Both the position numbers and the translations under genes were made by a program. A stretch of 64,000 bases of DNA from a virus. Location of the stretch: IMG/VR virus record IMGVR_UViG_3300045988_160394, positions 199,173 through 263,172 of that record, one strand, 5' to 3'. The number at the start of each line of letters is the position of its first letter. Position 1 is the stretch's first letter. This document shows, in pieces, positions 45,848-64,000 of this stretch. The notes under the pieces were generated by a model, which saw only the letters and a program-made list of their open reading frames with translations, was not told where the DNA came from and did no database searches.

Positions 45848-45853
45848 AATATA

Positions 45854-46300: not shown

Positions 46301-46517
46301 AAAACTTTCATCATATATATTTTTATATATTTTTCTACACCAATTTACAAATTTTTCCTATATAGAGCAAAATTTTTATAATTTTTCGAAGCAGTACCTA
46401 GTTATTGATAATAGATAAAAAGCTAAGAATTTTAGCCCCAGGTCTATTAAGTTAAACAAAATAAAAATAAACGAAAGGGTCTAATGATAAAAGATTGATT
46501 AGACAGAGGTGAATAAA

Positions 46518-46856
46518 ATGGAAAACTTAAAAGAAGTAAAAGCAACAAGAGTAAACGGAAGATTAATGGCTTCAGGTAAAGTAAAGTCATTAAATGAAAA
46601 GAGAAGAGAACAAGGAGTGAATATTATGAAACAAGAACAAGTAGTAGAAGTAAAAGAAGAAAGAATAGATACATCTATGTTTGATAAATTAAGTGCTAAT
46701 AAAGCAGCTTATAATAAGCACTTAGAGGATCTAGCTTATGACAAATGGTTAGATGAACAATTCGATCAAGAAGACAAGGAAAAGAAGCTATCATATAAGA
46801 TATCAAAGTTGTTTAAAATGATGGCTAGAGACTTGCAAGGAAAGAAAATAAAATAA
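46518..46856 (+). CDS. Hypothetical early protein (112 aa)
   Basis: ATG 46518 lies 7 nt after GAGGTG (the track starts at GTG 46509). TAA stop. Confidence 0.6.
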   Translation: MENLKEVKATRVNGRLMASGKVKSLNEKRREQGVNIMKQEQVVEVKEERIDTSMFDKLSANKAAYNKHLEDLAYDKWLDEQFDQEDKEKKLSYKISKLFKMMARDLQGKKIK

Positions 46857-46878
46857 ATAAACAGTAGGAGGTAAAGTG

Positions 46879-47283
46879 ATGAAGAAATCAAACAATTATA
46901 GACATGAGTTAGAGAGGTTAAAACCATTTAATAACTTCATAGTAGAAGGTAAGGTAGAGTGTATTAGTAGTAAGTTCACTGATAGTTTCTCAGGAGGATA
47001 TAAGACTAAGACTATGTTATTAACTAATGTAGGAATAGCATTAAGATCTAAGAAAGATAAGAAACTACACATAGTTATGAGAATAGATCACATATGGATA
47101 GCAGAGGATACTAATACAATACCTAGAGATAAAAATACAAAAATAGGAGATATAGTTAAGTTCAGAGGTAAAGTATATGAGTATAAATATAGTCATGGAG
47201 GTATACAATTAGGCATTAAACAGAGCATGAAAGGACATGTGAATGTAACCAAAGGAATAAGCTATAAAATATTGTATAAATAA
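46879..47283 (+). CDS. Hypothetical early protein (134 aa)
   Basis: ATG lies after AGGAGG. TAA stop. Followed by the AT-rich 9-bp hairpin CCTATATAT-(9 nt)-ATATATAGG at ca 47295-47321. Confidence 0.6.
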   Translation: MKKSNNYRHELERLKPFNNFIVEGKVECISSKFTDSFSGGYKTKTMLLTNVGIALRSKKDKKLHIVMRIDHIWIAEDTNTIPRDKNTKIGDIVKFRGKVYEYKYSHGGIQLGIKQSMKGHVNVTKGISYKILYK

Positions 47284-47404
47284 TATAGATTATGCCTATA
47301 TATGCATTACGTATATATAGGTATAAATGTGTATTATTCATACACTATGCACAGAGTATGTGGCATTATGGTCAACGAACCGCCCGCTCAATGGAGGTGC
47401 AATT

Positions 47405-49663
47405 ATGTCAAATTTAAACAACGTATTAGGGAACAACAATAATGTAGAAGGAGGAAGCAATATGAAAAAAGTAGTAATCAAAGCTACAAACAACAATAGC
47501 AGAAAGGCTGCTAAAATGAACAAGGAGTTACATGATGTAATGGCTAAGAGATTTATGAAACAAAATCTATATAACTGGGCTCCAGTTATCAGAATGATTA
47601 CTATAACAGGAGTAGATGATTTAGAAAACTTAGTGTTTGATATGTACAATACTATAGGAGGTAACAGCCCTGTAATGAGAGAGTTCGTTAAAAGAAATGG
47701 ATCCGTTACAGAAGGGGAGGTAGATGTCGTTCAAGTATTACCAGATGGAAGAAAAACAACTAGAAAGGTTGTTTGTGGAGAAGTTAAAGGTAAGATGAGA
47801 CATGATTATGTGGAGGATATATTCCTTATCCAATTTAAGGATTTAGAAAAGAATTTTAAAGGTATAACTAAGAAAGAAAAGAAAGAAGCTAGTGAATTAT
47901 TAGTTGCTTCCGTTCTTGATAATGGATTATCCATAGTAACAGATGTTAATGGATATCCTGCTGTTAGAATAAAAGGCCAAGAGATGGAAGGAGATGTAGT
48001 TAATAAAACTATTTCACCATTCATATGGACACCTTCAAACGAAAGAAATGGTCAAATACTAATGACTAGTATAGACCATAATGAAGCTTGGGACATATTA
48101 GAGACTGTTGGTGGAAGAACAGTTAGCAAGCTATTAGAAAAAGGAGAAGAGATGCCAATAGCTAAATTCAAGAAGTTAGCTTCAAGAATAGGTTTATTCG
48201 CAACTCCAGCTATTAAGTTCGGAAAAATAGGTACAGCTAAACATGGCCTATTATTAATAAACAGGACCATAGCTGGTGCTGATGATTTTGATAAAATTGC
48301 TAAGGAAGTGTTAGACTCTGTAGGAGTTGAAATAGATGATAACCAATATGATGGAGCTGTTTGGTTCTCAGCAGAATGGTTATCAGATTGTTTCAAAGAA
48401 AATGGATTTAACATTTCACCAGCTCAAGCCATCTGGTTTTCAGCTCAGCTAAGAGTCAATAAGATATATGCTAAAGTATTTGGAGAAGCATTTATTCAAG
48501 AGCTAGTTAATGTAATGGCTCACAAATTAATTGAAAACTTAGTAGAAGGTAGAGATTATACTATCATAGGTAATAGAGACAATATCTCAATGATACTAGA
48601 TAGTAATGGTGCTAAGTTATTGGATTTAAACTTAAAAGATAAATGTGATGTTTATCTATTAGATATAGCTAAAGGCACACAATCAGGTACAGCCATACAA
48701 ATGACAGATAAAATGGCTGTAAAAGATAAAGAAGCTACTTGCAACTTCTTATACAAAAGAGGTATAGAAGAATGTCACAATTATGTAAATGCTATAGGTG
48801 ATACAACTAAATCATTAGTAGAAGATGATATAAATGTATCAGAGTACTTAATAAATGTTGCAAAACATAATGGAGGAGCAATTGCTTCTAAAGTATTCTC
48901 TGATCAATATATCGTATCAGGTATATTAAGAGATGCAACTAAGAAACATGAAGCTGCTTATAGAAGAGGTAGAGTAGAATTAAACTCACTATTCCAAAGA
49001 GCTTTATTTGATAATACTTATGTATTTACTAGTGGTAAATTAGACTCAGTATTAAGAGTTGATAGTAGAGGTGCTATAGAATGCTATTCAACTGATGTTT
49101 TAGAATTAAATAGAGAAGTAATAGATGCTATAGAAAATGATAATACATTAAATGATTATGAGAAGGATATGAAATTAAGAGAAGTATTATCTGCTTGTAT
49201 TATTAAATACCCTACTCCGGGTACAGAGGAAATAGAACTTGTAGTCTTCTTAACAGAGAAACAAATAAATAGAAGACTACAAGGTTATGTGAAATCAGGT
49301 ATGATAACTAAAGAAGAAGCTTTAGTTCTATATAAATATTTTGTATACTCATCATACGGTACAATAAAAATAGCTGCTGATAATAGTGTAAAACACAAAT
49401 TAGCAGGATTTGATACAGATTACGACGGATTCGCAGTCGTATTCGAAAAAGAATTGGTCACTATAATAGAAGGAGTGTATGTTGAAAGAACTGAATCATT
49501 CCAAGAATCAACAGGTTCAATAGCTACACATGGTGGTGTTACTCCATTTATTGATTGTGGACATGATGCTAAGAACTATATAGAGCTAAATAATAAAAAT
49601 GTTAATATGAAAGATAAATCAGTACAGGACGAAATAAGTATTTGGAATAACTTATTCGAGTAG
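47405..49663 (+). CDS. 752-aa protein with two-barrel RNA-polymerase-like catalytic loop (DxDxD); paralogous to the C-terminal region of the giant 2770..11610
   Basis: ATG 47405 lies behind GGAGGTG (the track start 47327 has no RBS). IIKYPTPGTEEIELVVFLTEKQINRRLQGY...LAGFDTDYDGFAVVF aligns with the giant's ITDRYPNTRNNSINQTRVFLDKRLQGN...KANADQDGDSLSSF. DTDYDG = 49412-49429. Confidence 0.65.
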   Translation: MSNLNNVLGNNNNVEGGSNMKKVVIKATNNNSRKAAKMNKELHDVMAKRFMKQNLYNWAPVIRMITITGVDDLENLVFDMYNTIGGNSPVMREFVKRNGSVTEGEVDVVQVLPDGRKTTRKVVCGEVKGKMRHDYVEDIFLIQFKDLEKNFKGITKKEKKEASELLVASVLDNGLSIVTDVNGYPAVRIKGQEMEGDVVNKTISPFIWTPSNERNGQILMTSIDHNEAWDILETVGGRTVSKLLEKGEEMPIAKFKKLASRIGLFATPAIKFGKIGTAKHGLLLINRTIAGADDFDKIAKEVLDSVGVEIDDNQYDGAVWFSAEWLSDCFKENGFNISPAQAIWFSAQLRVNKIYAKVFGEAFIQELVNVMAHKLIENLVEGRDYTIIGNRDNISMILDSNGAKLLDLNLKDKCDVYLLDIAKGTQSGTAIQMTDKMAVKDKEATCNFLYKRGIEECHNYVNAIGDTTKSLVEDDINVSEYLINVAKHNGGAIASKVFSDQYIVSGILRDATKKHEAAYRRGRVELNSLFQRALFDNTYVFTSGKLDSVLRVDSRGAIECYSTDVLELNREVIDAIENDNTLNDYEKDMKLREVLSACIIKYPTPGTEEIELVVFLTEKQINRRLQGYVKSGMITKEEALVLYKYFVYSSYGTIKIAADNSVKHKLAGFDTDYDGFAVVFEKELVTIIEGVYVERTESFQESTGSIATHGGVTPFIDCGHDAKNYIELNNKNVNMKDKSVQDEISIWNNLFE

Positions 49664-49692
49664 TATTGATTGAGTAATTGTGTAATAGGTTC

Positions 49693-49728
49693 GGTGAGTG
49701 TATACCTTTAAAACTCACCATTTAAATT
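49693..49728 (+). terminator. Terminator-like hairpin after the RNAP-like gene
   Basis: GGTGAGT-(13 nt)-ACTCACC followed by ATTTAAATT. Confidence 0.45.
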
Positions 49729-49795
49729 AAAATATAAAAATAAAAGATAAAAAATTAAGGAAATCTTCAAAGAGTGAAGATATTAGGAGGAAACA

Positions 49796-51646
49796 ATGAT
49801 GAAAATATTATTAAACAACAACAACAATGGAGCAAATACTTTAATGGAGGCTGTTTCAAACGAAATGATGAAAATAACAGAAGCATCTAAGTTTAATGTT
49901 GCTAATGGTGTAGCAGGATTATATAACAGTGAAAAGAGAATAGATAAGAGAATGTTAGATTATTTAACAAAAGTAGATACTAGAAAGCTAGATAACATAC
50001 AAAGAGCTTTCGCAGTAACATCTTTTGCGACAGGTTCAATGGTAGGTATAACTACTATTGGTATAGAAGCAGCTTTAACTTTAGCTACTTCAACTTATCA
50101 ATATTTAGATAAAGATGGGAAGGTAAATGCTAAGAAAGTTGAAAGAGTTGTTAAGAACATAGGTGAAAAGCCAGAAGCTGGATATAGATATGTATCAGTG
50201 TTTAATTACAATGTAAACAAGGCTTTAGCTATATCTAAGTTCAGCAGAGCTTCAATATTTATAAGAGTATCTGCTCATGAAATAAAAGAGTTCCAAAAGA
50301 GAATAAGAAAGATTGATATGACAGCTATCCAACCAGAAGATCTTGTTACAATAGCATATGACATGGATATCATAGGTAGAGCTCTTCAAGAGTTATCTAT
50401 AGACGTTACTAAGGATAAATCAAAAGATATTGGTTATGATATCAATTCATTAATCAATATGACTAATAAAACAAAGTCTAACATTATTAAGAATACAGTT
50501 GTTAAAAACAACATAGAAGATATAATATCAGAAAAGATATTTAAAGGAACAGTTTCTAAAAAATACTCAATGGAAGCTATAATAGATGGTAAACCAATGA
50601 GTGAAGTAGATGTTAATGATAAAGATGAATTAAATAGTGCTTACATCGATAATTTAGGTGGAGATTGTAAAGACGCTATAAATGCTGGTTACATGAAAGG
50701 ATTCGAGCCTATTGTTGAGTTATTAAAAGTAAGCAATAATGATGCTTACCAAGTATTCAAGAACAGAGTAGTAACAGCTTCTCAAAACTCTAACCAAAAG
50801 GATGTTATTATGAATCAAATAATAACTGCTGCTAGAGTTGCTATGGATATCATTAATAATCTATATGGTAAGAAGCAATATGACAATACTATAACAAGCA
50901 GCTATATCAAAGAAGTTGCTGCTAAATTAAGAAATGCTATATACACTGTAGGAGCTAAATATGGAGTAGATCCAGTTAACACAGTTAAGATAGCTATGTC
51001 AGCTCCATTTGCTAAAATAGTTAACGGAGAATTAAAAGTAAAAGAAAGACCAACTAGCTTAAGAGCTATATTAGACATCTTCCCAAAAGAATTTGTAGTA
51101 GAATATGTATGTAATCCATATGATACAGAACAAAGCAAAAGAGAAGTAGCTGAATCAGCTTGTTACTTAACTGTTACATTCTCTGATTATGATTTATGCT
51201 TAGGAGATGAATTAGATTTCGAAGATAGTTTATCTATGACTGAGTATGGTATGGTTTCAATTAAAGAAAAATTCTCAGGTAAAGCTGTTGTTACAGAAGA
51301 AGGATTAAAAGCTGTTGTTGATATATACGCATTTGAATATACTGATGCTGTATTCTTAAGTGAAATATATACAAATAACGAACAAAGTTTTAATGCTCCA
51401 TTTGTACAACCAGTTTGCTTTACAAAAAATAGTGATGAATCTAATATAGAAACATCAATAGAAATGAACGCTATAAGAGAGAAAATAGACACTTGCTTAG
51501 ACGCAGGTACTAACGGTGTTCTATTATGTGTAAAAACAAAAGAGGGGAACTTATCAAAGATAGGTAGATTAGCTTTCCCTTATCAAGGAAAAATTAGAAT
51601 AAAAGATTATATAATAAATACATCTTGTGGAGTTGTATTATTATAA
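49796..51646 (+). CDS. Hypothetical early protein (616 aa)
   Basis: Intact ORF with RBS AGGAGG and TAA stop. No family recognised by eye. Confidence 0.65.
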   Translation: MMKILLNNNNNGANTLMEAVSNEMMKITEASKFNVANGVAGLYNSEKRIDKRMLDYLTKVDTRKLDNIQRAFAVTSFATGSMVGITTIGIEAALTLATSTYQYLDKDGKVNAKKVERVVKNIGEKPEAGYRYVSVFNYNVNKALAISKFSRASIFIRVSAHEIKEFQKRIRKIDMTAIQPEDLVTIAYDMDIIGRALQELSIDVTKDKSKDIGYDINSLINMTNKTKSNIIKNTVVKNNIEDIISEKIFKGTVSKKYSMEAIIDGKPMSEVDVNDKDELNSAYIDNLGGDCKDAINAGYMKGFEPIVELLKVSNNDAYQVFKNRVVTASQNSNQKDVIMNQIITAARVAMDIINNLYGKKQYDNTITSSYIKEVAAKLRNAIYTVGAKYGVDPVNTVKIAMSAPFAKIVNGELKVKERPTSLRAILDIFPKEFVVEYVCNPYDTEQSKREVAESACYLTVTFSDYDLCLGDELDFEDSLSMTEYGMVSIKEKFSGKAVVTEEGLKAVVDIYAFEYTDAVFLSEIYTNNEQSFNAPFVQPVCFTKNSDESNIETSIEMNAIREKIDTCLDAGTNGVLLCVKTKEGNLSKIGRLAFPYQGKIRIKDYIINTSCGVVLL

Positions 51647-51655
51647 GATAAAGAT

Positions 51656-51690
51656 AAGGCATGACTTACATAGTTGTGCCTTTTATTATA
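51656..51690 (+). terminator. Rho-independent-type terminator
   Basis: AAGGCA-(15 nt)-TGCCTT followed by TTTATTAT. Confidence 0.5.
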
Positions 51691-51744
51691 CTCAAAGATA
51701 TAAAATAAGAATGCAAAGAAAATAATAAAGTGAGGTAAAGAAAG

Positions 51745-52908
51745 ATGAAAAAGATAGCAATAGAAATAATGGAAAGACAATTACAAGAAAGAAAGGAAGC
51801 TGCAACTAGTATTATAAACAACACAATAGAAGCATTAAAAGTATTAGGACAAGAAGAGTTATTATCTTCAAATGTAGTAGAAGTAGAGAAAGAAAAAATA
51901 GTAGAAGTTAAAGTTCCAGTTGAAGTAGATAAGAGTGAATTAGAAGCTTTAAAAGTAAAAAATGCAGAAGCTGAAGCTATTATCAAATCATTAAAGAAAG
52001 AATTAGCTAATGAAAAGAGAAAGGCTACTAACAGTAACAAGAGAGTAGATAAATTAAAAGAACAAGTTTCTGAATTAAAATCAGATGTTAAAGGTTTATC
52101 TAAGATAGCTGATAAAAATAAAGAGCTTGTAGAAGAGAATAAATACTTAAAAGATATGATTACAAAATTAGAAGCTAAATTAAACATGAAAACAAATGCT
52201 GAATTTAAAGTACCAGTGAAGAATAAAGAAACAGTTAAGAAGCAAACTCCTGTTCAAATTAATAGCGATTTGAAAATTTATTCAAACAATAACATAAGTA
52301 TATTAGCTCAATATAAAAATGTTATATTTGAAGCTTCTAAAAGAATGGATGCAATAACCATATATGATCCAAGTATGTACGGTATGAAAGAAGAAATAAA
52401 AGCTGCACTAGAATCAGCTAAATTATTTACTCAAGCTAGAGATGTAAAAGACCATGACAGAATAGAAACTGAAATAGGTTCATGTCATGCTATATCTAAG
52501 ACTAAGTATATGGGATTCGTTATGGATAACGGTAAAGCTATTTGTTATGTATACGAACCAAGTAAATATGATACAGCTAAAGCTATTTTAATAAACAAAA
52601 GATTAAATAACACTAGTATTAAATATGAACCAGCTACAGAATCTCAACAAGCTCTTATTAACAATTTAGTAGCTCAACATGTAGCTGCTAATAATAAGAG
52701 AATGGAGCAACTTTCTCAAGATGCATATACTGGTTTAGGGTTAGATTTCTTAGATGGAAATAATAATCAACAAACAGTTAGTAATAGTGCTCCTAGTGTT
52801 AGCTTAAACTTTACAAAACAACCTGAACAAACTGCACCTTCAACTAATAGTCCTGAAGAGGATATGATGGCTGAATTTGCTAGAATGTTAGATGGTTTAA
52901 ATGCATAA
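51745..52908 (+). CDS. Hypothetical protein (387 aa) with N-terminal coiled coil
   Basis: Intact ORF with RBS GAGGT. Heptad-rich residues 1-150. TAA stop. Confidence 0.65.
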   Translation: MKKIAIEIMERQLQERKEAATSIINNTIEALKVLGQEELLSSNVVEVEKEKIVEVKVPVEVDKSELEALKVKNAEAEAIIKSLKKELANEKRKATNSNKRVDKLKEQVSELKSDVKGLSKIADKNKELVEENKYLKDMITKLEAKLNMKTNAEFKVPVKNKETVKKQTPVQINSDLKIYSNNNISILAQYKNVIFEASKRMDAITIYDPSMYGMKEEIKAALESAKLFTQARDVKDHDRIETEIGSCHAISKTKYMGFVMDNGKAICYVYEPSKYDTAKAILINKRLNNTSIKYEPATESQQALINNLVAQHVAANNKRMEQLSQDAYTGLGLDFLDGNNNQQTVSNSAPSVSLNFTKQPEQTAPSTNSPEEDMMAEFARMLDGLNA

Positions 52909-53205
52909 GCGTTACCTTTCCCCTGCGGGGGTAGTTTCTCACGTTAAGCCCTACGGGTTTGAGTTAAAAGTAACTACCTTCGGTTATCGAGAAATTAGAA
53001 ATATTTCTTTCTATGACAAGTTAGCTCCGCTTCGCTACGCTAACTGTTAGAAAGAAGAAAACTCGCTTCGCTCGTAAGAAATAGAGCGTTTTGTGAGTAT
53101 TCGTGAGAAGAGTGCTTCTCTTTGGTGGGTAAAACCACCAACGGTTGTACTTAGCTCTACGAGTGCCATAAGAAATCATAAAAGAAATAGTACTTCTTTT
53201 TGATT
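52909..53205 (+). ncRNA. Unclassified GC-rich structured RNA island (about 300 nt, at least 6 hairpins, several UNCG tetraloops)
   Basis: Noncoding in all frames and far more GC-rich than its flanks. Hairpins and helices read directly:
- CCCC-UGCG-GGGG;
- GGUAGUU...AACUACC enclosing CUCA[..AAGCCC-UAC-GGGUUU..]UGAG;
- C-UUCG-G;
- a 16-bp bipartite helix UUCUUUCUA..AGUUAGC-(13 nt)-GCUAACU..UAGAAAGAA (53005-53056);
- CGCUC-(10 nt)-GAGCG;
- GAGAAG-AGUG-CUUCUC;
- GGUGG-GUAAAA-CCACC.
The stable loops are UNCG only on the plus strand. Confidence 0.6.
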
Positions 53206-57105: not shown

Positions 57106-57131
57106 AGAGAGTCTATATGGCTCTCTTTTTA
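57106..57131 (+). terminator. Rho-independent terminator
   Basis: AGAGAGUC-UAUAU-GGCUCUCU followed by UUUUU. Confidence 0.65.
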
Positions 57132-57161
57132 TTATTATTAATATAAGGGAGATTGATTGAT

Positions 57162-57308: not shown

Positions 57309-57515
57309 GTGATATATGTGATTAATATAGATATAAAATCTAAGAATAGAAAAGAATTAATTAAAGCATATAAAAGAGCTTTACATATGATAAAAGAGTA
57401 TGAATATGGTCTTAATAGCTTAACAGCTAAAGAAATAGATACAATAAATGATATAAAGAAACAAATAAGAGATGAAATAGCTATAAAAGATTGTATAAAT
57501 AAAGGTGCTTATTAA
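57309..57515 (+). CDS. Small hypothetical protein (68 aa)
   Basis: Track ORF with a GTG start abutting the previous stop (TAGGTG). TAA stop. Confidence 0.4.
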   Translation: MIYVINIDIKSKNRKELIKAYKRALHMIKEYEYGLNSLTAKEIDTINDIKKQIRDEIAIKDCINKGAY

Positions 57516-57561
57516 TAGAATTGTTATTTGAAAATTATATATTTGAGAGGAGATTAATAAT

Positions 57562-57720
57562 ATGAGTAAAGAAGCATTACAATTAGTTAATAGAATAGCA
57601 GGATTAAAGGATGATTTTGTTATAGACAAGATAATATGTGCAGCAATAGAACAAGGTTTAGATGTTAGTCCTGAAGCTGGTATAGAAGAAGATATGGATG
57701 AGATAGTATTAGAGTTATAG
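57562..57720 (+). CDS. Small hypothetical acidic protein (52 aa)
   Basis: Below the track cutoff. ATG lies after GAGAGGAGATTAATAAT. TAG stop. Confidence 0.45.
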   Translation: MSKEALQLVNRIAGLKDDFVIDKIICAAIEQGLDVSPEAGIEEDMDEIVLEL

Positions 57721-58075
57721 AGTATATATAAGGGAGGGGCGTAAGCCCCGACCGATTTAAAAAGTATTTATATCTACGAGCTAATATATATATTGCGAGC
57801 GTCAGCGAGCAACCATATAACATTATATATTATTACTCAGAAATAGAAATATCTTTTAGAAATATAACTATTTTTGCTTATATTTTTATCTACTTATTGT
57901 GATATGAAGTTTATTACAACTAAACTTTTACGAAAAAAGTGTTTAACTTTTACGTACTTTTGTTTGGTATTACTAAACTTTTACCCTTTTTCTGCTTTTT
58001 TAGTTACCCTCGTTTTAAATAATATTATTGAAATTTATTATTTTGTCGAGGAGGAACTACCCCCGCCCGTATGTT
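57721..58075 (+). other. Noncoding region: two GC-rich structured ends flanking an AT-rich core with direct repeats
   Basis: Left end: GGGGC-GUAA-GCCCC (GNRA hairpin) and GCGAGC-GUCA-GCGAGC. Right end: UAGUUACCCUCG-(34 nt)-CGAGGAGGAACUA hairpin, then CCCCCGCCCG. Track ORF 57874..58077 has no RBS and is low-complexity. Confidence 0.5.
57919..57985 (+). repeat. Three direct repeats (A/G)(C/T)T(A/T)AACTTTTAC(G/C) in the AT-rich noncoding core
   Basis: ACTAAACTTTTACG (57919-57932), GTTTAACTTTTACG (57941-57954) and ACTAAACTTTTACC (57972-57985), spaced 22 and 31 nt start to start. Confidence 0.6.
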
Positions 58076-58271
58076 AAAGTCATATATGGAAATAAGGATG
58101 AAAGTTCCGTTTTGAAGAAATGAGCTATATCAAGGGATAAGAAGGCACTTTTCAGCATAAATACTATAAAAACCGCTATTTTAGGTATAAATGTCTAATA
58201 AGTAAATAAAACAAAAACAAATATAATTACATACGTATATCTATGTATATACACATAAGGAGGTAAATAAA

Positions 58272-58877
58272 ATGATTGAAAACCTATATTATGAATGTCA
58301 ATATTGGGTTAAAGTAAGAAAAGAGAAATTAAAGATATTTAAATGGATATTATCAAGTCAACATGGTTTAGATTATAGAGCAAAGAGATTAGATGAAAAA
58401 GATTTATTCTTGTGTAGAAATGTACAAAGTGATGAAAATAAAGTAGAAATATTGATAATAAGTGCATGGATAAGAGTAGACAGAGAATATTTAGAAGTAA
58501 TTAAACCAGAAGGTAAAGCATACATAACATATGTATTAAAGAACTTTAAAGATAGTATAAAGTTAAACCATTATTATGAGATAGTAGCAGAAGGTACTAA
58601 TGGATATTATATAATTGATGAAGATGGAGATCTAATATATTATGATAGTGATTGTTTAACCATAATAAAAGATGATAAAAGTAATGAGTATAAGTTAATA
58701 GACATAATAAAGAAGAATATATCTGATATAGAGTTTAGTACAATAGATAATAATAATAAGTTTATGTTAGATAAAGATAATAGATTAATAATATACTTAC
58801 CAGAAGAGATAAGTAGTAAATGTAATAAGAAGAGATTAGTAATAGATTTAAATAGTATATGTGTAATAGATAAATAA
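58272..58877 (+). CDS. Hypothetical protein (201 aa)
   Basis: Intact ORF with RBS AAGGAGG and TAA stop. Confidence 0.6.
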   Translation: MIENLYYECQYWVKVRKEKLKIFKWILSSQHGLDYRAKRLDEKDLFLCRNVQSDENKVEILIISAWIRVDREYLEVIKPEGKAYITYVLKNFKDSIKLNHYYEIVAEGTNGYYIIDEDGDLIYYDSDCLTIIKDDKSNEYKLIDIIKKNISDIEFSTIDNNNKFMLDKDNRLIIYLPEEISSKCNKKRLVIDLNSICVIDK

Positions 58878-58901
58878 GAGTTCGAGTCTTTAAGGCTAAA
58901 C

Positions 58902-58918
58902 AATAGGAGCCAATTTAA
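58902..58918 (+). promoter_or_regulatory. Motif AATAGGAGCCAATTTAA (copy 1), 40 nt upstream of the next start codon
   Basis: A 17-mer repeated at 60080-60096 with one R difference. It is not the RBS; the real RBS GAAGGAGAG follows downstream. Confidence 0.35.
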
Positions 58919-58957
58919 TATAAGTATAGACAATAAAGAGAAGGAGAGAAAAAAGAA

Positions 58958-59377
58958 ATGAAGAATGTAATAAGTAATGAGAGATTAATAGAGCTATTAG
59001 AAGAAGGATATTATCCAGTAAATATAGATAAAGGAACAACAGGTATATTTGTTAATATAGAAGAAGAAATAACATATTTAGTATTAAGTGATGAAGTTAC
59101 TATACAAATAAAGAATGAAGAGAGTATAAGATCTACTAATAATAAAGATATAGAAGAATTTAAAGAATGGATGGAAGGATATTGGAATACATATAGTTAT
59201 AGAGAGTTTATAGAATCAATAAGAGAATTTAGAGAGAATACAGAATATTATGAAGAGAATGTAGAATTTATAATAAACTGTTTAGAAAAAGATGATTGGG
59301 ATAAATTAAATCTTTTTATAGATTTAGCAATGAATGATAATTTAAGTTTACCTATATCTAGAATAATAGAAGATTAA
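58958..59377 (+). CDS. Hypothetical acidic protein (139 aa)
   Basis: Intact ORF with RBS GAAGGAGAG and TAA stop. Confidence 0.6.
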   Translation: MKNVISNERLIELLEEGYYPVNIDKGTTGIFVNIEEEITYLVLSDEVTIQIKNEESIRSTNNKDIEEFKEWMEGYWNTYSYREFIESIREFRENTEYYEENVEFIINCLEKDDWDKLNLFIDLAMNDNLSLPISRIIED

Positions 59378-59410
59378 TATATATATTATTATAAATTAGG
59401 AGGATTAATT

Positions 59411-59569
59411 ATGATAAAGAAAATAAAAGCACACATAACAGGAACACTTAATAAAGGAAATATGTTATATGGATTAGCAGGAGCTATAGAAGCTATTAAT
59501 GATTTAACAGATAAAGTTAATGAGTTAGTAGATGCAGTTAATGAATTAAAGAAAGAAAAGGAGAGCTAA
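59411..59569 (+). CDS. Small hypothetical protein (52 aa)
   Basis: Below the track cutoff. ATG lies after AGGAGG. TAA stop. Confidence 0.45.
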   Translation: MIKKIKAHITGTLNKGNMLYGLAGAIEAINDLTDKVNELVDAVNELKKEKES

Positions 59570-59573
59570 TAAT

Positions 59574-59756
59574 ATGTATAAGTATTTTGTAGCATATGAT
59601 GCTGTAGATCAATATGCAAACTTTAAAGGTAATTGTTGTGTTGATATAGAGCATAAGATAGGATCAGAAGATATTAAAAAGATAGAAAAAGAATTGGCCC
59701 AAAAGTTATCAGTAACAAAGATAATTATTAATAACTTTATATTAATAGATAATTAG
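59574..59756 (+). CDS. Small hypothetical protein (60 aa)
   Basis: Track ORF with RBS AAAGGAGAG and TAG stop. Confidence 0.5.
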   Translation: MYKYFVAYDAVDQYANFKGNCCVDIEHKIGSEDIKKIEKELAQKLSVTKIIINNFILIDN

Positions 59757-59766
59757 AAAGAGAGTT

Positions 59767-60054
59767 GTGATATATATGAGATGTAATATAGAATCAATAG
59801 ATAGAAATATAACTGTAGGAGATTTAATATTATATAGAAATAATAAAGTTATAATTGAAAATGATAATAGAAAATGCTTAATTGTATTCAAAAGTATTAA
59901 AAATACAGTTATAGAACTATTAGATATAGAAACTATGGATATAATAGCGGAGTTTCAAAGTGTTATGGATATAATTAAAGACCCTAATTATATTAAGTTA
60001 ATATGTAGAGGAGAAGAATTAGAATTAAAGAGAATAGAAGAGCTAACATCTTAG
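59767..60054 (+). CDS. Hypothetical protein (95 aa), paralog of 63360..63617
   Basis: Track ORF; an ATG at 59776 is an alternative start. Shared pattern: ITVGDLILYRNNKVI...ELLDIETMDIIAEF vs NIGLGDIVRYNNVID...RLVNLETGLTVDSF. Confidence 0.5.
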   Translation: MIYMRCNIESIDRNITVGDLILYRNNKVIIENDNRKCLIVFKSIKNTVIELLDIETMDIIAEFQSVMDIIKDPNYIKLICRGEELELKRIEELTS

Positions 60055-60079
60055 TTAGCTCGTTTCTTTATGTTTAAAA

Positions 60080-60096
60080 AATAGGAGCCGATTTAA
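60080..60096 (+). promoter_or_regulatory. Motif AATAGGAGCCGATTTAA (copy 2), 59 nt upstream of the next start codon; degenerate third copy at 60103-60119
   Basis: Matches 58902-58918 at 16 of 17 positions. AATAGGAGTGTATTAAA follows 7 nt later. Confidence 0.35.
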
Positions 60097-60154
60097 ATGA
60101 TGAATAGGAGTGTATTAAATATAAAAAACAAGTAAAAGAGAGGTTTAAATTGTA

Positions 60155-60406
60155 ATGAGTGAACATAAGTGTATTAATAAATTTGATAATGATAGATTAG
60201 GTTTATATAAAATAGCATTAAGAAAGTATGATGAATTATATTGTAAGTATGATATTTATATAATAAAAGATAAAGATGATGAAGAATTATATTGCTTAAT
60301 GAGTAGAGATAGATCTGATAAAACATTGTTCTGGAATATTTATAAAGAACTAAAAACACAAGCAACTTTAATAGAATATGTATTAAAAAAGAATGGAGTG
60401 ATCTAG
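60155..60406 (+). CDS. Hypothetical protein (83 aa)
   Basis: Track ORF with RBS AGAGAGG and TAG stop. Confidence 0.5.
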   Translation: MSEHKCINKFDNDRLGLYKIALRKYDELYCKYDIYIIKDKDDEELYCLMSRDRSDKTLFWNIYKELKTQATLIEYVLKKNGVI

Positions 60407-61102
60407 ATGTTAACCAGAGATTATTCTTATTATGAAGTATTGAAAGAGATTAGGTTTAATAGATCAGCTTATAAATATGCAAAAGGAGATATAATAAGAG
60501 TAAATTTTAATATATATCGTGAAAAAGTAATAGATACAACTGTATTGAATAGATATTATAGAGATCAGATATGGGGAATAGATGATCAGAAAGAATTCTT
60601 TAATCAATTAGATAAGAAGGCTATAAAGATAACTAATATATTAGACTATCCATTAGTTATGAAAGATATTAAAGAGATAGCTCTTAAAAGATTAGATTAT
60701 AAAGATAAAAAGTTAGGTTATTACAAAGCATTAAATATAATGAATCAAGCAATAGATAATATAGCTAAAGAAAAGGGCCCTCGTTGTAAATTAAAAGCTT
60801 ATGATGATGAAACTATAGGATGTAAAGTTACTACAAGTGATTGTGGTTTATGTACATTATTTAGAGATTTAGACTCAAATCGTCATGATATAGAAGATTA
60901 TCCGTGTCCTTTTGATAAAAGTGCAGATGCCTATATAGATAACATAGAAGATAGAATAAAATCTATGAAGTATATTAAATATGAATGGCAAGGCTGTTAT
61001 TACAGATGTAAATTAAAGAATGGGTTAACCATAGAAAAAGGCAGAAATATTATAGATAATTATAAAGATAAAATATATAAACAAATAAACAAGGAGAAAT
61101 AA
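60407..61102 (+). CDS. Cys-rich hypothetical protein (231 aa), paralog of 62698..63348
   Basis: Shared blocks: YPLVMKDIKEIALKRLDYKDKKLGYYKALNIMNQAIDNIAKEKG / CGLC / YPCPFD / CYYRCKL versus YPIVLEDIKEFNKYRLDYNDKRMGYLRALNLANERLDEIINEKG / CGMC / YPCPFD / CYKRCKL. Confidence 0.65.
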   Translation: MLTRDYSYYEVLKEIRFNRSAYKYAKGDIIRVNFNIYREKVIDTTVLNRYYRDQIWGIDDQKEFFNQLDKKAIKITNILDYPLVMKDIKEIALKRLDYKDKKLGYYKALNIMNQAIDNIAKEKGPRCKLKAYDDETIGCKVTTSDCGLCTLFRDLDSNRHDIEDYPCPFDKSADAYIDNIEDRIKSMKYIKYEWQGCYYRCKLKNGLTIEKGRNIIDNYKDKIYKQINKEK

Positions 61103-61105
61103 AAT

Positions 61106-61297
61106 ATGTTATATACAACAGTTAAATGTGATTGTGGAAGATATGCATCAGCTGATGATTTAATGGAATCAGAGGCTAGTAGTATAATCATTTGCCCAGA
61201 ATGTTCAGCAACTTGCCCTAATTGTGGTAGAATAATTTGTGAAGATGAAATACTATGGAATACAAAGAAATGTCCAATGTGTGATCCAGATTATTAA
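61106..61297 (+). CDS. Small zinc-ribbon protein (63 aa)
   Basis: Motifs CDCG...CPECSATCPNCG...CPMC. RBS AAGGAG. Confidence 0.55.
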   Translation: MLYTTVKCDCGRYASADDLMESEASSIIICPECSATCPNCGRIICEDEILWNTKKCPMCDPDY

Positions 61298-61313
61298 AAA
61301 GGAGAGATTTAAT

Positions 61314-61625
61314 ATGAAATGTTTAAAATGTGGTCATGAAATAGAAGTGGAAAAAATAGAATTAAATAACGGTAAGACTTTTAAGATATTTAAAAAGTGT
61401 TCTATTTGCAATACTGTTAATAATGCCAGAGATTATTATCCACTTATGTATAAGAATACTATCCTTAATTACCTTAAAGATAGATTGCATAAAGAAGAGG
61501 ATAGAGAAATAATAGGTGTAGATAAAGATTATGATGATGAAGTGAATATGAAATATGGAGCAATCAATATTTTAGAAGAAGTTATTCATCATATTGAAAC
61601 TAGTATGCCTGTAAAAGGAGAGTAA
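61314..61625 (+). CDS. Small zinc-ribbon protein (103 aa)
   Basis: ATG 61314 lies after AAAGGAGAG (the track start 61239 overlaps the previous gene). Motif CLKCGH...CSICN. Confidence 0.55.
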   Translation: MKCLKCGHEIEVEKIELNNGKTFKIFKKCSICNTVNNARDYYPLMYKNTILNYLKDRLHKEEDREIIGVDKDYDDEVNMKYGAINILEEVIHHIETSMPVKGE

Positions 61626-61630
61626 TTATT

Positions 61631-61876
61631 ATGTTTGGTTGCAAAAGAGAATCTAGTGAACAAATAAGAGAAAGATTGCTTAAATTGTGTAAAGAAGAAG
61701 GACGTGAATCATGTCCTCCATGCTTAGATGCAGATGTTGCATTAAATGAGTTAGCGGATCATTTGCTGGGTAAAGACTGGTATGTTGTTGGTCCTATTCA
61801 TGCTAAACAAGTTAATTTTGAAATAGTAAAAGCTATAGAAGAAAAATATAAGAGGGTGAAAAGTAATGGCTATTAG
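61631..61876 (+). CDS. Hypothetical protein (81 aa)
   Basis: Track ORF with RBS AAAGGAGAG and TAG stop. Confidence 0.5.
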   Translation: MFGCKRESSEQIRERLLKLCKEEGRESCPPCLDADVALNELADHLLGKDWYVVGPIHAKQVNFEIVKAIEEKYKRVKSNGY

Positions 61877-62156
61877 AAGATGGAATGGACCTATCATAAT
61901 AGACAAAGAAACTGCTAAAGAAATGGCTAAAAAAGAACCATGTAGTGAATATCAAAAACGTTGTGCTGATTTTGTTAGTAAATTCCCTAGTCCTATATTA
62001 CATAGGTCAGCTTTAATGTCATCTATAGAAAAAGAAATAGATAAATTTGAAAAAGAATGTTGTAATGAATGTGATCCTTATAACATAGCTTATGGAGAAG
62101 GTATAGTAAAAGGATTATATATTGCTTTAGGTATAGTTGAAAAAGGTAAATTATAA
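61866..62156 (+). CDS. Hypothetical protein (96 aa)
   Basis: Track ORF with RBS GAGGGTG. It overlaps the previous gene by 11 nt. Confidence 0.5.
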   Translation: MAIRRWNGPIIIDKETAKEMAKKEPCSEYQKRCADFVSKFPSPILHRSALMSSIEKEIDKFEKECCNECDPYNIAYGEGIVKGLYIALGIVEKGKL

Positions 62157-62191
62157 TAATTAATATTAAAAATGAAAGTGAGGAAATTGAT

Positions 62192-62356
62192 ATGAAAAAT
62201 AATGAATTAAGAGCAAGAGGTATGAAAAACTTAGAGGAGGCTATAAAAGATATATCTAAAATGGAATGTAAATGTTCAGAAATGGATACAGTTTGTGATA
62301 GATGTAGAGCTTTAAGTTCTGCTATTCATGCTAAAGACTCATTAGAAAGATTATAA
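62192..62356 (+). CDS. Small Cys-containing protein (54 aa)
   Basis: Below the track cutoff. ATG lies after GTGAGGAAA. Motif CKCSEMDTVCDRC. TAA stop. Confidence 0.4.
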   Translation: MKNNELRARGMKNLEEAIKDISKMECKCSEMDTVCDRCRALSSAIHAKDSLERL

Positions 62357-62378
62357 TATAATTAATGGAGAGAGAAAG

Positions 62379-62540
62379 ATGAAATATTGTAGTAATTGTG
62401 GTAAAGAATTAAAGACAACTGTAGACTTTGATAGAACCATTATTGGCAATTTTAAAAAAGGTATTAAATTAAGCAAAAAATGTTTCTATTGTGGAGCAAT
62501 ATTAAATGTTGCATATATAGAAGAAAAGAGTAATAGATAG
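62379..62540 (+). CDS. Small zinc-ribbon protein (53 aa)
   Basis: Below the track cutoff. ATG lies after GGAGAGAGAAAG. Motif CSNCGKEL...CFYCG. TAG stop. Confidence 0.4.
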   Translation: MKYCSNCGKELKTTVDFDRTIIGNFKKGIKLSKKCFYCGAILNVAYIEEKSNR

Positions 62541-62542
62541 CT

Positions 62543-62686
62543 ATGGATATAGTATTTTTTATATTATGTATGGCTATTATAATAGGAATGGGAGTTATTA
62601 GTATTACATCTGGAGATAATATTTCAGGAGTTGCTTATATATTAATAGCTCTCTTTTTTATTTTATTACTATTAAGTACTTTATAG
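62543..62686 (+). CDS. Small two-helix membrane protein (47 aa)
   Basis: Below the track cutoff. Almost entirely hydrophobic (MDIVFFILCMAIIIGMGVISI...YILIALFFILLLLSTL). TAG stop. Confidence 0.35.
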   Translation: MDIVFFILCMAIIIGMGVISITSGDNISGVAYILIALFFILLLLSTL

Positions 62687-62697
62687 GAGGTATATAT

Positions 62698-63348
62698 GTG
62701 TTTGGTTTTAAAAAAGAATACAAGTATTATATAGTTGATAATATAGATAGGAACTTTGATTTTAAACTAGGAGAAATAATTAGAGTCGTTCGAGAAAATA
62801 AAAGTTTATATCTATATAGTATTTTCGATAAAAGAACTGAAAGTGCATGTGGTAATTCTAGATTTAAATATTTGAAGTTTATAAAGAAAAACTGCTCACT
62901 TTTATGTGATTTAGAATATTATCCAATAGTATTAGAAGATATAAAAGAGTTTAATAAATATAGATTGGATTATAATGATAAAAGAATGGGTTATTTAAGA
63001 GCATTGAATCTAGCAAATGAAAGATTAGATGAAATAATTAATGAAAAAGGTGAAAATATATTATTAAACCGTTTCGAGAATAATTGTGGAATGTGTTCAA
63101 GAAGAAAAAAGTTAGGTTATTTTTTCTTTATAGATTTAGATGGTTATCCTTGCCCATTCGATACTGATTCAAAGGATTTTTTAAAAGATAGTAAGGTATT
63201 TAATGAAATAGAAGATATTAATTACAATTGTTATAGCTGTTATAAAAGATGTAAATTATCAAAATTAACAGCTAAGGAAGCAAAGAAAATATTAAATGAT
63301 ACTGAAAAAGTAGTAAAAGAAGCTATATTAAAAGAAAAAAGATTGTAG
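62698..63348 (+). CDS. Cys-rich hypothetical protein (216 aa), paralog of 60407..61102
   Basis: GTG start 7 nt after AGGAGG. See the shared blocks listed for 60407..61102. Confidence 0.65.
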   Translation: MFGFKKEYKYYIVDNIDRNFDFKLGEIIRVVRENKSLYLYSIFDKRTESACGNSRFKYLKFIKKNCSLLCDLEYYPIVLEDIKEFNKYRLDYNDKRMGYLRALNLANERLDEIINEKGENILLNRFENNCGMCSRRKKLGYFFFIDLDGYPCPFDTDSKDFLKDSKVFNEIEDINYNCYSCYKRCKLSKLTAKEAKKILNDTEKVVKEAILKEKRL

Positions 63349-63359
63349 GAGGCATTATT

Positions 63360-63617
63360 ATGAGATTAGCATTAGAAGAAAAACCTAAAAATATAGGATT
63401 AGGAGACATAGTTAGATACAATAACGTAATAGATTGTTTAGTTATAAAATTAAATGGTGAAGACGATTTATATAATGATATTAGAGTAATTAGATTAGTA
63501 AATTTAGAAACTGGTTTAACAGTAGACTCATTTATAAGTTTAGAAGAGCTTAATAAGTTTACTTTAGTTAAATTAATAGCTAAGTCAAATGAAGTAAAGA
63601 TAGGATGGGATAGATAA
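63360..63617 (+). CDS. Hypothetical protein (85 aa), paralog of 59767..60054
   Basis: Track ORF with RBS AGGAGG and TAA stop. Confidence 0.5.
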   Translation: MRLALEEKPKNIGLGDIVRYNNVIDCLVIKLNGEDDLYNDIRVIRLVNLETGLTVDSFISLEELNKFTLVKLIAKSNEVKIGWDR

Positions 63618-63844
63618 TGAAAAAAAGAATATTAGGAATTATATCAACTGTAGTCATTTGTACTACAGTTTTTATTAGTTGTTCAAACAATACTGTTCAT
63701 TCTGAACAAAAAGAATGTTTAAAACTTTTAGGAAATAGAGGAGGCATTTATGTTTATGAAGATGTCATGAATGGCAATATTGTATATGAATGTTATCAAC
63801 ATGGAATAGCTGTAGTGCCTAAACATGAAGTAAAAGGAGAATAA
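63617..63844 (+). CDS. Predicted small lipoprotein (75 aa)
   Basis: Signal peptide plus lipobox: MKKRILGIISTVVICTTVFISC|SNN. Its start overlaps the previous stop (TAATG). Confidence 0.55.
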   Translation: MKKRILGIISTVVICTTVFISCSNNTVHSEQKECLKLLGNRGGIYVYEDVMNGNIVYECYQHGIAVVPKHEVKGE

Positions 63845-63845
63845 T

Positions 63846-64000
63846 ATGAAATATATAGAACTAATAGTTTTAATAATATTTTATATATTAGTTGTTATAT
63901 TATGGGGTATATCAACAATGAGTTTAGTAATAGCTATTAAAAGCAATAATGATGTATTGATGTTATTATCTGGCTTTTATTTAATATTATCTGTAATATG
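63846..64000 (+). CDS. Small membrane protein, N-terminal part (runs off right edge)
   Basis: ATG lies after AAAGGAG. The frame is open to the end of the window and the sequence is hydrophobic. Confidence 0.4.
   Translation, partial: MKYIELIVLIIFYILVVILWGISTMSLVIAIKSNNDVLMLLSGFYLILSVI

What the first reader, a model, noticed from the sequence alone, without database searches (positions are those of the whole stretch)
46509..64000. The opposed early block contains no in-frame TGA at all: code-neutral genes beside recoded genes
The 17.5 kb of plus-strand genes (about 35 ORFs) contain no in-frame TGA and no TGA terminator. They still encode at least two dozen Trp residues, all as TGG (for example YNWAPV, FIWTPS, AVWFSAEWLS, QYWVK, EWMEGYWNT).

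These genes are therefore translated identically under the standard code and under table 4. The convergently organised late operon, by contrast, cannot be translated under the standard code.

If the host natively used table 4 and the genome is this AT-rich, TGA-Trp would be expected everywhere. The strict strand partition instead suggests a temporal code switch. Under that model, early genes are read by an unmodified host translation system and late genes need a phage-delivered suppressor function. No suppressor tRNA is present in this window.
Basis: partly seen in the sequence, partly recalled or inferred. Interest (0 to 1): 0.8.

Follow-up and report, generated by a model that had tools for sequence, protein, structure and literature searches.

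The report
Late-gene TGA recoding in jumbo phage
This is part of a ~263 kb gut phage that reads TGA as tryptophan in its virion genes, while a large opposed block of presumably early genes stays in the ordinary code; this split is real but has already been described for other gut phages.

Summary
The plus-strand block 46518-64000 has 31 called genes, 31 Trp codons (all TGG), no in-frame TGA and no TGA stop. The opposed block 1-46219 is the virion module of a ~263 kb relative of Bacillus phage 0305phi8-36. In the window it has 47 in-frame TGA against 60 TGG, in 16 of 29 genes.

TGA means Trp: 16 of 19 aligned TGA sites are TGG in standard-code relatives that are about 65% identical.

I walked about 50 kb beyond the window on the plus side and about 27 kb on the late side. 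The split is strong but not strict:
- Plus block: 128 genes, 2 in-frame TGA (both in one kinase-like gene) against 159 TGG, and 5 apparent TGA terminators.
- Late block: 40 genes, 79 TGA against 103 TGG (p = 9e-24).

Beyond the window the plus block is therefore standard-code, not just code-neutral. This argues against a host that natively uses table 4.

No tRNA was found in the ~140 kb examined, about half the genome.

The pattern and its interpretation (standard-code early genes, recoded late genes, a phage-driven switch) match Borges et al. on recoded gut phages. I rate it a new member of a known kind. Gene timing and the suppressor itself are inferred, not shown.

The parts
46518..64000 (+). 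Standard-code-compatible block: 31 called genes, mostly small ORFans. It continues for at least 50 kb beyond the window.
   Evidence: 0 in-frame TGA, 31 TGG, stops 18 TAA and 13 TAG. No PHROG hits, and no Pfam hit for most genes. No BLASTP homologues in MTATph1, 0305phi8-36 or L090. Terminator-like hairpins are enriched, 17 found against 4.4 expected. Strong SD sites.
1..46219 (-). TGA-recoded late (virion) module: 29 genes, of which the gene at 1-2721 runs off the window.
   Evidence: 47 in-frame TGA against 60 TGG in 16 genes. Homology and synteny with the structural modules of Moorella phage MTATph1 and Bacillus phage 0305phi8-36.
46220..46517 (.). Divergent intergenic region between the two blocks; presumed promoter region.
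   Evidence: 298-nt gap between opposed first genes. The promoter scan is uninformative in this AT-rich DNA.
39228..42197 (-). Large terminase carrying a LAGLIDADG intein; the most heavily recoded conserved gene.
   Evidence: Pfam Terminase_6N, Intein_splicing and LAGLIDADG_3. 9 TGA and 3 TGG. The orthologue in the closest IMG/VR relative has 12 TGG and no TGA. Residue 712 aligns with W in MTATph1 and 0305phi8-36.
31383..32609 (-). HK97-fold major capsid protein, free of TGA.
   Evidence: Pfam Phage_capsid_4, E = 3e-18. 0 TGA and 4 TGG. 52% identical to the MTATph1 major head protein.
32725..37858 (-). Head genes: a 484-aa protein homologous to 0305phi8-36 gp124 (annotated putative head decoration protein), a 478-aa protein homologous to gp123 (protease/scaffold), and the portal. 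Nearly free of TGA.
   Evidence: Together with the capsid protein these genes have 1 TGA in 17 Trp codons, against a late-block mean of 43% (binomial p = 9e-4). Homologues of MTATph1 and 0305phi8-36 proteins by BLASTP, matched to the records' annotation by coordinates.
12038..17800 (-). 1920-aa virion protein with 13 in-frame TGA.
   Evidence: 13 TGA and 9 TGG. TGA at residues 1143 and 1182 aligns with W in MTATph1.
2770..11610 (-). 2946-aa virion protein with 5 in-frame TGA.
   Evidence: It is called as fragments under code 11 in public assemblies.
24114..27044 (-). Tail-sheath-like protein.
   Evidence: Weak Pfam Phage_sheath_1C match. BLASTP to the annotated sheath genes of MTATph1 and 0305phi8-36. 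1 TGA and 3 TGG.
61631..61876 (+). Tad8-family Thoeris inhibitor (anti-defence gene) in the plus block.
   Evidence: Pfam PF25189, E = 4e-14, 52.5 bits against a cut-off of 27. By general knowledge, anti-defence genes are usually expressed early.

Best explanation
The window is part of a ~263 kb jumbo myovirus, probably with a circular or circularly permuted genome, from the 0305phi8-36 / MTATph1 family. These phages infect Bacillota.

Its lineage has recently reassigned TGA from stop to tryptophan, but only in genes meant to be translated after a phage-imposed change of the cell's decoding. On entry, the host's unmodified standard-code ribosomes and RF2 translate the opposed block. That block is at least 66 kb long, has about 128 mostly ORFan genes including anti-defence and nucleic-acid-metabolism functions, contains essentially no in-frame TGA, and even ends some genes with TGA.

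Later, a phage-supplied suppressor function makes TGA readable as Trp. This is most likely a tRNA with anticodon UCA encoded in the unexamined half of the genome, possibly with helper factors. The change unlocks the roughly 73 kb virion module, where 43% of Trp codons are TGA.

The most abundant head proteins avoid TGA, probably because suppression is less efficient than ordinary decoding. Low-copy proteins such as terminase and the giant tail proteins have accumulated TGA through AT-biased TGG-to-TGA drift or through selection for late, limited expression.

Shown here: the codon distribution, TGA = Trp, standard-code relatives, and TGA terminators in the plus block. Inferred: the timing of the two blocks, the host's code, and the identity of the suppressor.
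For: Codon distribution:
- Window: 0 TGA and 31 TGG in the plus block against 47 TGA and 60 TGG in the late block.
- With about 77 kb of flanks: 2 and 159 against 79 and 103, p = 9e-24.

TGA = Trp:
- 16 W, 1 Y, 1 F and 1 G at 19 aligned sites in relatives about 65% identical. These relatives carry TGG there and have no in-frame TGA.
- 5 W, 3 Y and 2 N at 10 aligned sites in MTATph1 and 0305phi8-36.

Relatives use the standard code:
- Long-ORF coverage is essentially unchanged under code 4 in the closest relatives and rises by at most about 4 points in more distant ones, against 11 points for the window.
- They use TGA stops and show no TAG recoding.
- Terminase has 12 TGG in the closest relative, against 3 TGG and 9 TGA here.

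Standard-code reading of the plus block:
- 5 genes end in TGA with short or implausible read-through.
- One of them has a 121-aa paralogue that matches the TGA-terminated length.

Host type and gene class:
- Capsid protein, terminase, portal and sheath are homologous to phages of Bacillus and Moorella.
- AGGAGG-type SD sites.
- A capsid protein 72% identical lies on a fecal 'Bacilli bacterium' MAG contig.
- Tad8 anti-Thoeris gene, CCA-adding tRNA nucleotidyltransferase, and NAD-dependent ligase and DHH genes lie in the plus block.

The same architecture and model are published for recoded gut phages.
Against: - No suppressor tRNA, TrpRS or RF1 was found in the ~140 kb examined. About 123 kb remain unseen.
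- There are no expression data, so 'early' and 'late' rest on gene content and analogy.
- One plus-strand gene, kinase-like with a weak AAA_18 match, has two in-frame TGA.
- A glucosaminidase-domain gene with no TGA lies in the plus block. If it is the endolysin, the lysis-timing part of the published model would not apply here.
- The host is not identified directly.
Confidence: 0.8

Rival explanations
1. The host natively uses table 4 (for example a Mycoplasmatales-like member of Bacilli). The plus block lacks TGA only because it was recently acquired or because of codon bias, so there is no code switch.
For: The only genome-collection hit with a plausible host label is an unspecific 'Bacilli bacterium' fecal MAG, and class Bacilli includes table-4 lineages. 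The plus block is made of ORFans with no homologues in relatives, which is compatible with rapid turnover or acquisition.
Against: - Five plus-block genes end in TGA with junk read-through. They would be mis-extended or fused in a table-4 cell.
- That MAG contig itself is standard-code and uses a TGA stop.
- All relatives, down to 80% terminase identity, use the standard code.
- The family's cultured members infect Bacillus and Moorella.
- SD sites are strong.
- TGA makes up only 43% of late Trp codons and about 1% of plus-block Trp codons. By general knowledge, AT-rich native table-4 genomes use mostly TGA for Trp.
- Borges et al. report that about 90% of genes carry in-frame TGA in phages of natively recoded hosts. 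Here it is 1 of 128 in the plus block.
Confidence: 0.05
2. The split reflects expression level and translational efficiency rather than time. Suppression is available throughout infection but is inefficient, so TGA is purged wherever much protein is needed.
For: Within the late block the most abundant virion proteins (capsid, gp124-like, gp123-like and portal) have 1 TGA in 17 Trp codons, p = 9e-4. Low-copy terminase has 9 of 12.
Against: It cannot explain why about 127 of 128 plus-block genes avoid TGA as a sense codon, since most are small accessory ORFans unlikely all to be highly expressed. It also cannot explain why that block still uses TGA as a terminator. It fits better as a secondary effect layered on the temporal switch.
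Confidence: 0.1
3. The two blocks come from different genomes (a chimeric assembly), or TGA marks pseudogenes, frameshifts or selenocysteine sites rather than a reassignment.
For: None beyond the sharp boundary at 46.2-46.5 kb.
Against: - The same arrangement recurs in many independent assemblies of 261-265 kb from ENA, Logan and JGI, with circular permutation of the contig ends.
- All 20 aligned TGA sites are conserved across strains about 99% identical.
- 79 sites lie in intact, conserved virion genes and align with Trp.
- Some public pipelines already call these genes full-length under code 4.
Confidence: 0.01

Closest known systems
Stop-codon-recoded gut phages with standard-code early genes (Borges et al. 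2021/2022; code-4 members of the Jade, Sapphire and Agate clades; also TAG-recoded crAss-like and Lak phages)
   Same: - Low-GC genome.
- TGA read as Trp, concentrated in structural genes.
- Other gene blocks kept in the standard code.
- Very close standard-code relatives with few TGA stops.
- Probable Firmicutes host.
- Genome size within the Jade/Sapphire range given in the paper.
- A suppressor tRNA that is often not detectable: the paper reports one in only 35% of code-4 genomes.
   Different: - Membership of a named clade could not be tested, because no reference sequences were available.
- No suppressor tRNA or 'code-change module' (tRNA + TrpRS + RF1) has been located.
- The lysis cassette was not reached, so preferential recoding of lysis genes is untested.
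- The standard-code block here is unusually large (at least 66 kb) and almost entirely ORFan.
Bacillus phage 0305phi8-36 and Moorella phage MTATph1 (jumbo myoviruses of Bacillota)
   Same: Capsid protein 37-52% identical. Homologous terminase, portal, gp123-like (protease/scaffold), gp124-like, sheath, tube and giant tail proteins, in the same order. A structural block opposed to a long block of small genes.
   Different: Those phages use the standard code throughout the parts compared, with W (TGG) or Y at the window's TGA sites. Their opposed blocks share no detectable proteins with the first 66 kb of this phage's plus block.
Phages of natively recoded hosts (table 4 Mycoplasma/Spiroplasma phages; table 25 phages of Absconditabacteria)
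   Same: In-frame TGA in phage genes.
   Different: In those phages TGA is a sense codon in nearly all genes and never a terminator. Here 127 of 128 plus-block genes lack it and 5 end with it. TGA aligns with Trp, not Gly.

Membership tests
Phage stop-codon recoding, code 4, with partial (late-gene) use (Borges et al. type) | In-frame TGA in conserved phage genes that aligns with Trp in standard-code homologues | tested here: met
   16 W of 19 sites in relatives about 65% identical. 5 W, 3 Y and 2 N of 10 sites in MTATph1 and 0305phi8-36.
Phage stop-codon recoding, code 4, with partial (late-gene) use (Borges et al. type) | Coding density rises when genes are called with TGA as a sense codon | tested here: met
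   Long-ORF coverage rises from 0.737 to 0.847 in the window. It is essentially unchanged in the closest relatives and rises by at most about 4 points in more distant ones.
Phage stop-codon recoding, code 4, with partial (late-gene) use (Borges et al. type) | Recoded codons concentrated in structural and lysis genes, with another gene set kept in the standard code | tested here: met
   79 TGA and 103 TGG in 40 virion-module genes, against 2 and 159 in 128 opposed-block genes. The lysis cassette and core replication genes were not reached.
Phage stop-codon recoding, code 4, with partial (late-gene) use (Borges et al. type) | Phage-encoded suppressor tRNA (anticodon UCA) or other code-change factors (TrpRS, RF1) | tested here: inconclusive
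   None found by ARAGORN or Rfam in about 140 kb, roughly 53% of the genome. A CCA-adding enzyme gene is present.
Phage stop-codon recoding, code 4, with partial (late-gene) use (Borges et al. type) | Host uses the standard code | tested here: inconclusive
   The evidence is indirect only: 5 TGA terminators in the plus block, standard-code relatives, Bacillota-type SD sites, and a related contig in a Bacilli MAG. No CRISPR or isolate evidence.
Phage stop-codon recoding, code 4, with partial (late-gene) use (Borges et al. type) | Temporal separation: the standard-code genes are expressed before the recoded genes | not testable with these tools
   Needs transcriptomics or proteomics. The only support is gene content (Tad8, ORFans, terminators).
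0305phi8-36-like jumbo myoviruses | Homologous and syntenic head, packaging and tail module, and a genome larger than 200 kb | tested here: met
   tblastn and BLASTP hits to capsid protein, terminase, portal, gp123-like, gp124-like, sheath and tube proteins. Contigs of 261-265 kb.
Phages of natively table-4 hosts | TGA used as Trp across all gene classes and never as a terminator | tested here: not met
   1 of 128 plus-block genes has a sense TGA, and 5 end in TGA.
Code 25 phages (TGA = Gly) | TGA aligns with Gly | tested here: not met
   1 G of 19 aligned sites and 0 of 10.

The most novel reading that the evidence does not exclude
This lineage may decode TGA without a canonical phage suppressor tRNA. 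None was found in the half of the genome examined. One possibility is a phage factor that disables or diverts RF2 so that host tRNA-Trp reads UGA. By my recollection, Bacillota such as B. subtilis already read UGA as Trp at low efficiency; I did not check this here. The nearly ORFan 66 kb standard-code block, with its CCA-adding enzyme and self-cleaving ribozyme cluster, might encode that machinery. A natural 'before and after' pair exists: the terminase of an 80%-identical relative has 12 TGG, against 3 TGG and 9 TGA here. That pair would make the origin of a code change experimentally tractable.
Probability: 0.1. Interest if true: 0.7.

Novelty: new member of a known kind. Interest (0 to 1): 0.3.

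Why it matters
It adds a well-delimited, prevalent example of partial TGA-to-Trp recoding inside the 0305phi8-36-like jumbo phage family. The same phage appears in dozens of public gut assemblies.

Close relatives still use the standard code, so the steps of a recent code change can be compared gene by gene. Examples are TAA-only stops in the nearest relative, 75% of terminase Trp codons converted, and head genes spared.

There is also a practical point. Most public pipelines call this phage's virion genes as fragments under code 11, so annotation of such contigs needs mixed-code gene calling.

It does not change the current understanding of phage recoding.

Tried and rejected
- **Megablast to GenBank phages.** No match. 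PHROGs gave nothing for the plus-block genes.
- **Concatenated multi-protein query in the search for homologous proteins**, to jump to other genome regions. It returned nothing.
- **DnaB-based jump.** MTATph1 DnaB gave 296 hits, but this phage's copy could not be recognised. Look-ups of P0107, P0045 and P0038 landed on standard-code relatives or short contigs. These were still useful: they showed that relatives use the standard code, and that the family's lysis cassette lies at the end of the late block, just before primase and DnaB.
- **Other scans.** IMG/VR scans with an early protein and with P0107 or P0038 did not recover the closest relatives. The JGI metagenome scan found only 2-7 kb contigs. 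The DNA search returns only 4-7 kb loci.
- **Walking.** It worked only through protein ids from the listing of cluster members plus one homologue search.
- **Sigma-70 promoter scan.** Uninformative in 29% GC DNA: 118 sites found against 119 expected.
- **Test for purifying selection on TGG between strains** (L115 against L124). 0 of 18 Trp codons changed, against 9.2% A/G divergence at twofold sites, so about 1.7 changes were expected. Not significant.
- **TAG recoding in relatives.** Looked for and not found.
- **Rejected readings:** code 25 (Gly), selenocysteine, pseudogenes and chimeric assembly.


Full report
**What the window is**

The 64 kb window has 29% GC, and its compositional skews flip sign at about 46 kb. 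On the minus strand, positions 1-46219 hold a virion module:
- an HK97-type major capsid protein (31383-32609; Pfam Phage_capsid_4, E = 3e-18);
- a large terminase interrupted by a LAGLIDADG intein (39228-42197);
- a sheath-like protein;
- giant proteins of 1920 and 2946 aa.

The capsid protein is 52% identical to that of Moorella phage MTATph1 and 37% identical to that of Bacillus phage 0305phi8-36. By BLASTP and gene order, the proteins at 35723-37858, 34285-35721 and 32725-34179 correspond to the 0305phi8-36 portal, gp123 (protease/scaffold) and gp124 (putative head decoration protein). Sheath, tube and tail proteins follow in the same order.

Exact-protein look-ups place the window on many independent public gut-metagenome contigs of 261-265 kb, whose ends are circularly permuted. 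So this is a complete jumbo-phage genome of about 263 kb and not a chimera.

**Checking the observation**

The plus block 46518-64000 has 31 called genes covering about 89% of the block. They contain no in-frame TGA and 31 TGG. Stops are 18 TAA and 13 TAG. TGA is frequent out of frame (359 trinucleotides on that strand), so the sequence is not simply poor in TGA.

The late block in the window has 47 in-frame TGA against 60 TGG, in 16 of 29 genes (Fisher p = 5e-7). Long-ORF coverage of the window rises from 0.737 under code 11 to 0.847 under code 4. There is no tRNA in the window.

'No in-frame TGA' amounts to saying that the plus block is intact under the standard code. The non-trivial point is the contrast with the neighbouring block. 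'No TGA terminator' in 31 genes is not significant on its own. By my tally, standard-code relatives use TGA for only about 8% of stops, and the closest relatives use TAA 19 times out of 19.

**What TGA encodes**

I translated TGA as X and aligned the proteins.
- In IMG/VR relatives about 65% identical, 16 of 19 window TGA sites are W. The others are 1 Y, 1 F and 1 G. These relatives carry TGG at those sites and have no in-frame TGA.
- In the standard-code cultured phages, 10 aligned sites gave 5 W, 3 Y and 2 N.
- Strains about 99% identical keep all 20 aligned TGA sites, and one strain has an extra TGG-to-TGA change.

So TGA means Trp (code 4) and not Gly (code 25).

**Relatives**

None of the related loci examined gains coverage under code 4 as the window does. 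They use TGA stops and show no TAG recoding.

The closest group has a terminase 80% identical. It ends 19 of 19 genes with TAA, and its terminase has 12 TGG, where this phage has 3 TGG and 9 TGA. The recoding is therefore recent and specific to this lineage. This matches the published path: low GC, loss of TGA stops, then re-emergence of TGA as a sense codon.

**Beyond the window**

Protein ids from exact cluster look-ups were accepted as keys for contig look-ups. Using them I read about 50 kb further along the plus block (L001, L111, L113, L115, L124) and about 27 kb further along the late block (L026, L114, L116). These loci come from several strains of the same phage, and L124 is only about 94% identical in nucleotide sequence to the others.

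Integrated tally:

| Block | Genes | Codons | In-frame TGA | TGG | Stops (TAA / TAG / TGA) |
|---|---|---|---|---|---|
| Plus | 128 | 20,245 | 2 | 159 | 84 / 39 / 5 |
| Late | 40 | 23,671 | 79 (in 24 genes) | 103 | 30 / 10 / 0 |

The Fisher test gives p = 9e-24.

The two plus-block TGA lie in one gene, at window-equivalent 72339-72815. It is a P-loop kinase-like protein. A weak Pfam AAA_18 match (E = 2.3e-4, below the curated cut-off) runs across the first TGA.

The five TGA-terminated plus-block genes have short or nonsensical read-through. One has a 121-aa paralogue that matches the TGA-terminated length. So outside the window the block is not merely code-neutral: it relies on TGA as a stop. 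This is the strongest sequence-level argument that these genes are read by a standard-code system.

**Heterogeneity inside the late block**

The capsid protein, the gp124-like and gp123-like proteins and the portal together have 1 TGA in 17 Trp codons, against a block mean of 43% (p = 9e-4). Terminase has 9 of 12 (p = 0.03). This suggests an added efficiency or dosage effect: abundant proteins avoid the suppressed codon.

**Nature of the plus block**

Its proteins have no BLASTP homologues in MTATph1, 0305phi8-36 or a relative's replication region. They have almost no family matches.

Recognisable genes are:
- a Tad8 Thoeris inhibitor (61631-61876);
- an RNase H1 N-terminal domain protein;
- a CCA-adding tRNA nucleotidyltransferase;
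- a glucosaminidase-domain protein, a nucleoside deoxyribosyltransferase and an RlaP nucleotidyltransferase;
- a DHH phosphoesterase, an NAD-dependent DNA ligase, a PemK toxin and an NMN transporter.

Genes are preceded by strong AGGAGG-type Shine-Dalgarno sites. In the first 10 kb they are followed by terminator-like hairpins, 17 found against 4.4 expected. Together this fits an early or host-takeover and accessory region of a Bacillota phage, but the timing is inferred.

**Host**

The evidence is indirect:
- cultured family members infect Bacillus and Moorella;
- a capsid protein 72% identical lies on a fecal 'Bacilli bacterium' MAG contig that is itself standard-code and uses a TGA stop;
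- the SD sites are strong;
- the plus block uses TGA stops.

A native table-4 host is unlikely. I put it at about 5%.

**The suppressor**

ARAGORN found no tRNA in any locus of this phage. Rfam at gathering thresholds found nothing in about 140 kb of unique sequence.

This includes the end of the late block, the lysis cassette and the core replication genes. In a relative, the lysis cassette sits just before Rad52, primase and DnaB.

Borges et al. detected suppressor tRNAs in only 35% of code-4 phages. In Jade phages they found a module of tRNA, TrpRS and RF1 upstream of the lysis cassette. That region is not covered here. The CCA-adding enzyme gene hints at phage tRNAs elsewhere in the genome.

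**Comparison with what is known**

The finding corresponds point for point to the model of Borges et al. (bioRxiv 10.1101/2021.08.26.457843). In that model, recoded gut phages of standard-code Firmicutes or Bacteroidetes hosts keep early genes in the standard code. They use the reassigned stop in structural and lysis genes, have very close standard-code relatives, and are proposed to switch code part-way through infection.

A full-text search found no paper linking 0305phi8-36-like phages to recoding. Even so, the paper's Jade and Sapphire clades (about 200-210 kb, with code-4 members) may well be this group.

**Verdict**

I rate it a new member of a known kind, with interest 0.3.

Noticed in passing
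window 53731-55405 (+), intergenic regions: A cluster of candidate self-cleaving ribozymes lies between small plus-block genes. A type II hammerhead at 54268-54333 scores 40.4 bits (Rfam cut-off 37), matches the full model and has the CGAAAC and CUGAUGA cores. A near-identical second copy lies at about 54922-54990. A third CUGAUGA...GAAA element lies at 53790-53830. A twister-P1-like match at 55300-55354 scores 49.1 bits (cut-off 67.2), E = 2e-9, with the conserved core but no P3 stem. By general knowledge, ribozyme clusters in phage genomes are known, but their role is unexplained.
   Followed up: partly
L001 18980-19456 (window-equivalent 72339-72815, + strand): The only plus-block gene with sense TGA codons (two of them). 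It is a P-loop kinase-like protein with a weak AAA_18 match, and public code-11 annotations split it into fragments of 36 and 59 aa. It may be a delayed gene embedded in the standard-code block.
   Followed up: partly
L111 15145-16491 (window-equivalent 78149-79495, + strand): A phage-encoded CCA-adding tRNA nucleotidyltransferase (PolyA_pol + HD + tRNA_NucTran2_2) with no TGA. It suggests that tRNA maturation or repair matters to this phage, although no tRNA gene was found nearby.
   Followed up: no
window 39228-42197 (-): The terminase carries a LAGLIDADG intein (roughly residues 53-468). Two of the nine terminase TGA lie inside the intein (residues 132 and 276). The intein is shared with the closest standard-code relative, whose terminase is 1001 aa.
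   Followed up: partly
L113 10728-11492 (window-equivalent about 83.4-84.2 kb, + strand): A glucosaminidase-domain (PF01832) protein with no TGA lies in the standard-code block. If it is the endolysin, lysis would not be gated by recoding here. In a relative (L125), the amidase/glucosaminidase endolysin and holin lie at the end of the late block instead.
   Followed up: no
window 46518-64000 and L001, L111, L113, L115, L124: At least 66 kb (about 128 genes) of the plus block has no detectable homologue in the family's cultured members (MTATph1, 0305phi8-36) or in a related replication locus. It includes the Tad8 anti-Thoeris gene (61631-61876), a PemK toxin, and NMN-transporter and NADAR genes. 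This is an unusually large lineage-specific accessory region.
   Followed up: partly
window 58878-58957 and 60055-60154 (+), intergenic: A repeated motif, AATAGGAGCC(A/G)ATTTAA, lies upstream of two plus-block genes. It may be a regulatory or promoter element.
   Followed up: no
L054 and L038 (IMG/VR relatives, terminase 80% identical): All 19 genes in the 21 kb locus end in TAA, with neither TGA nor TAG. This is an extreme stop-codon bias in the nearest standard-code relatives of a recoded phage.
   Followed up: partly
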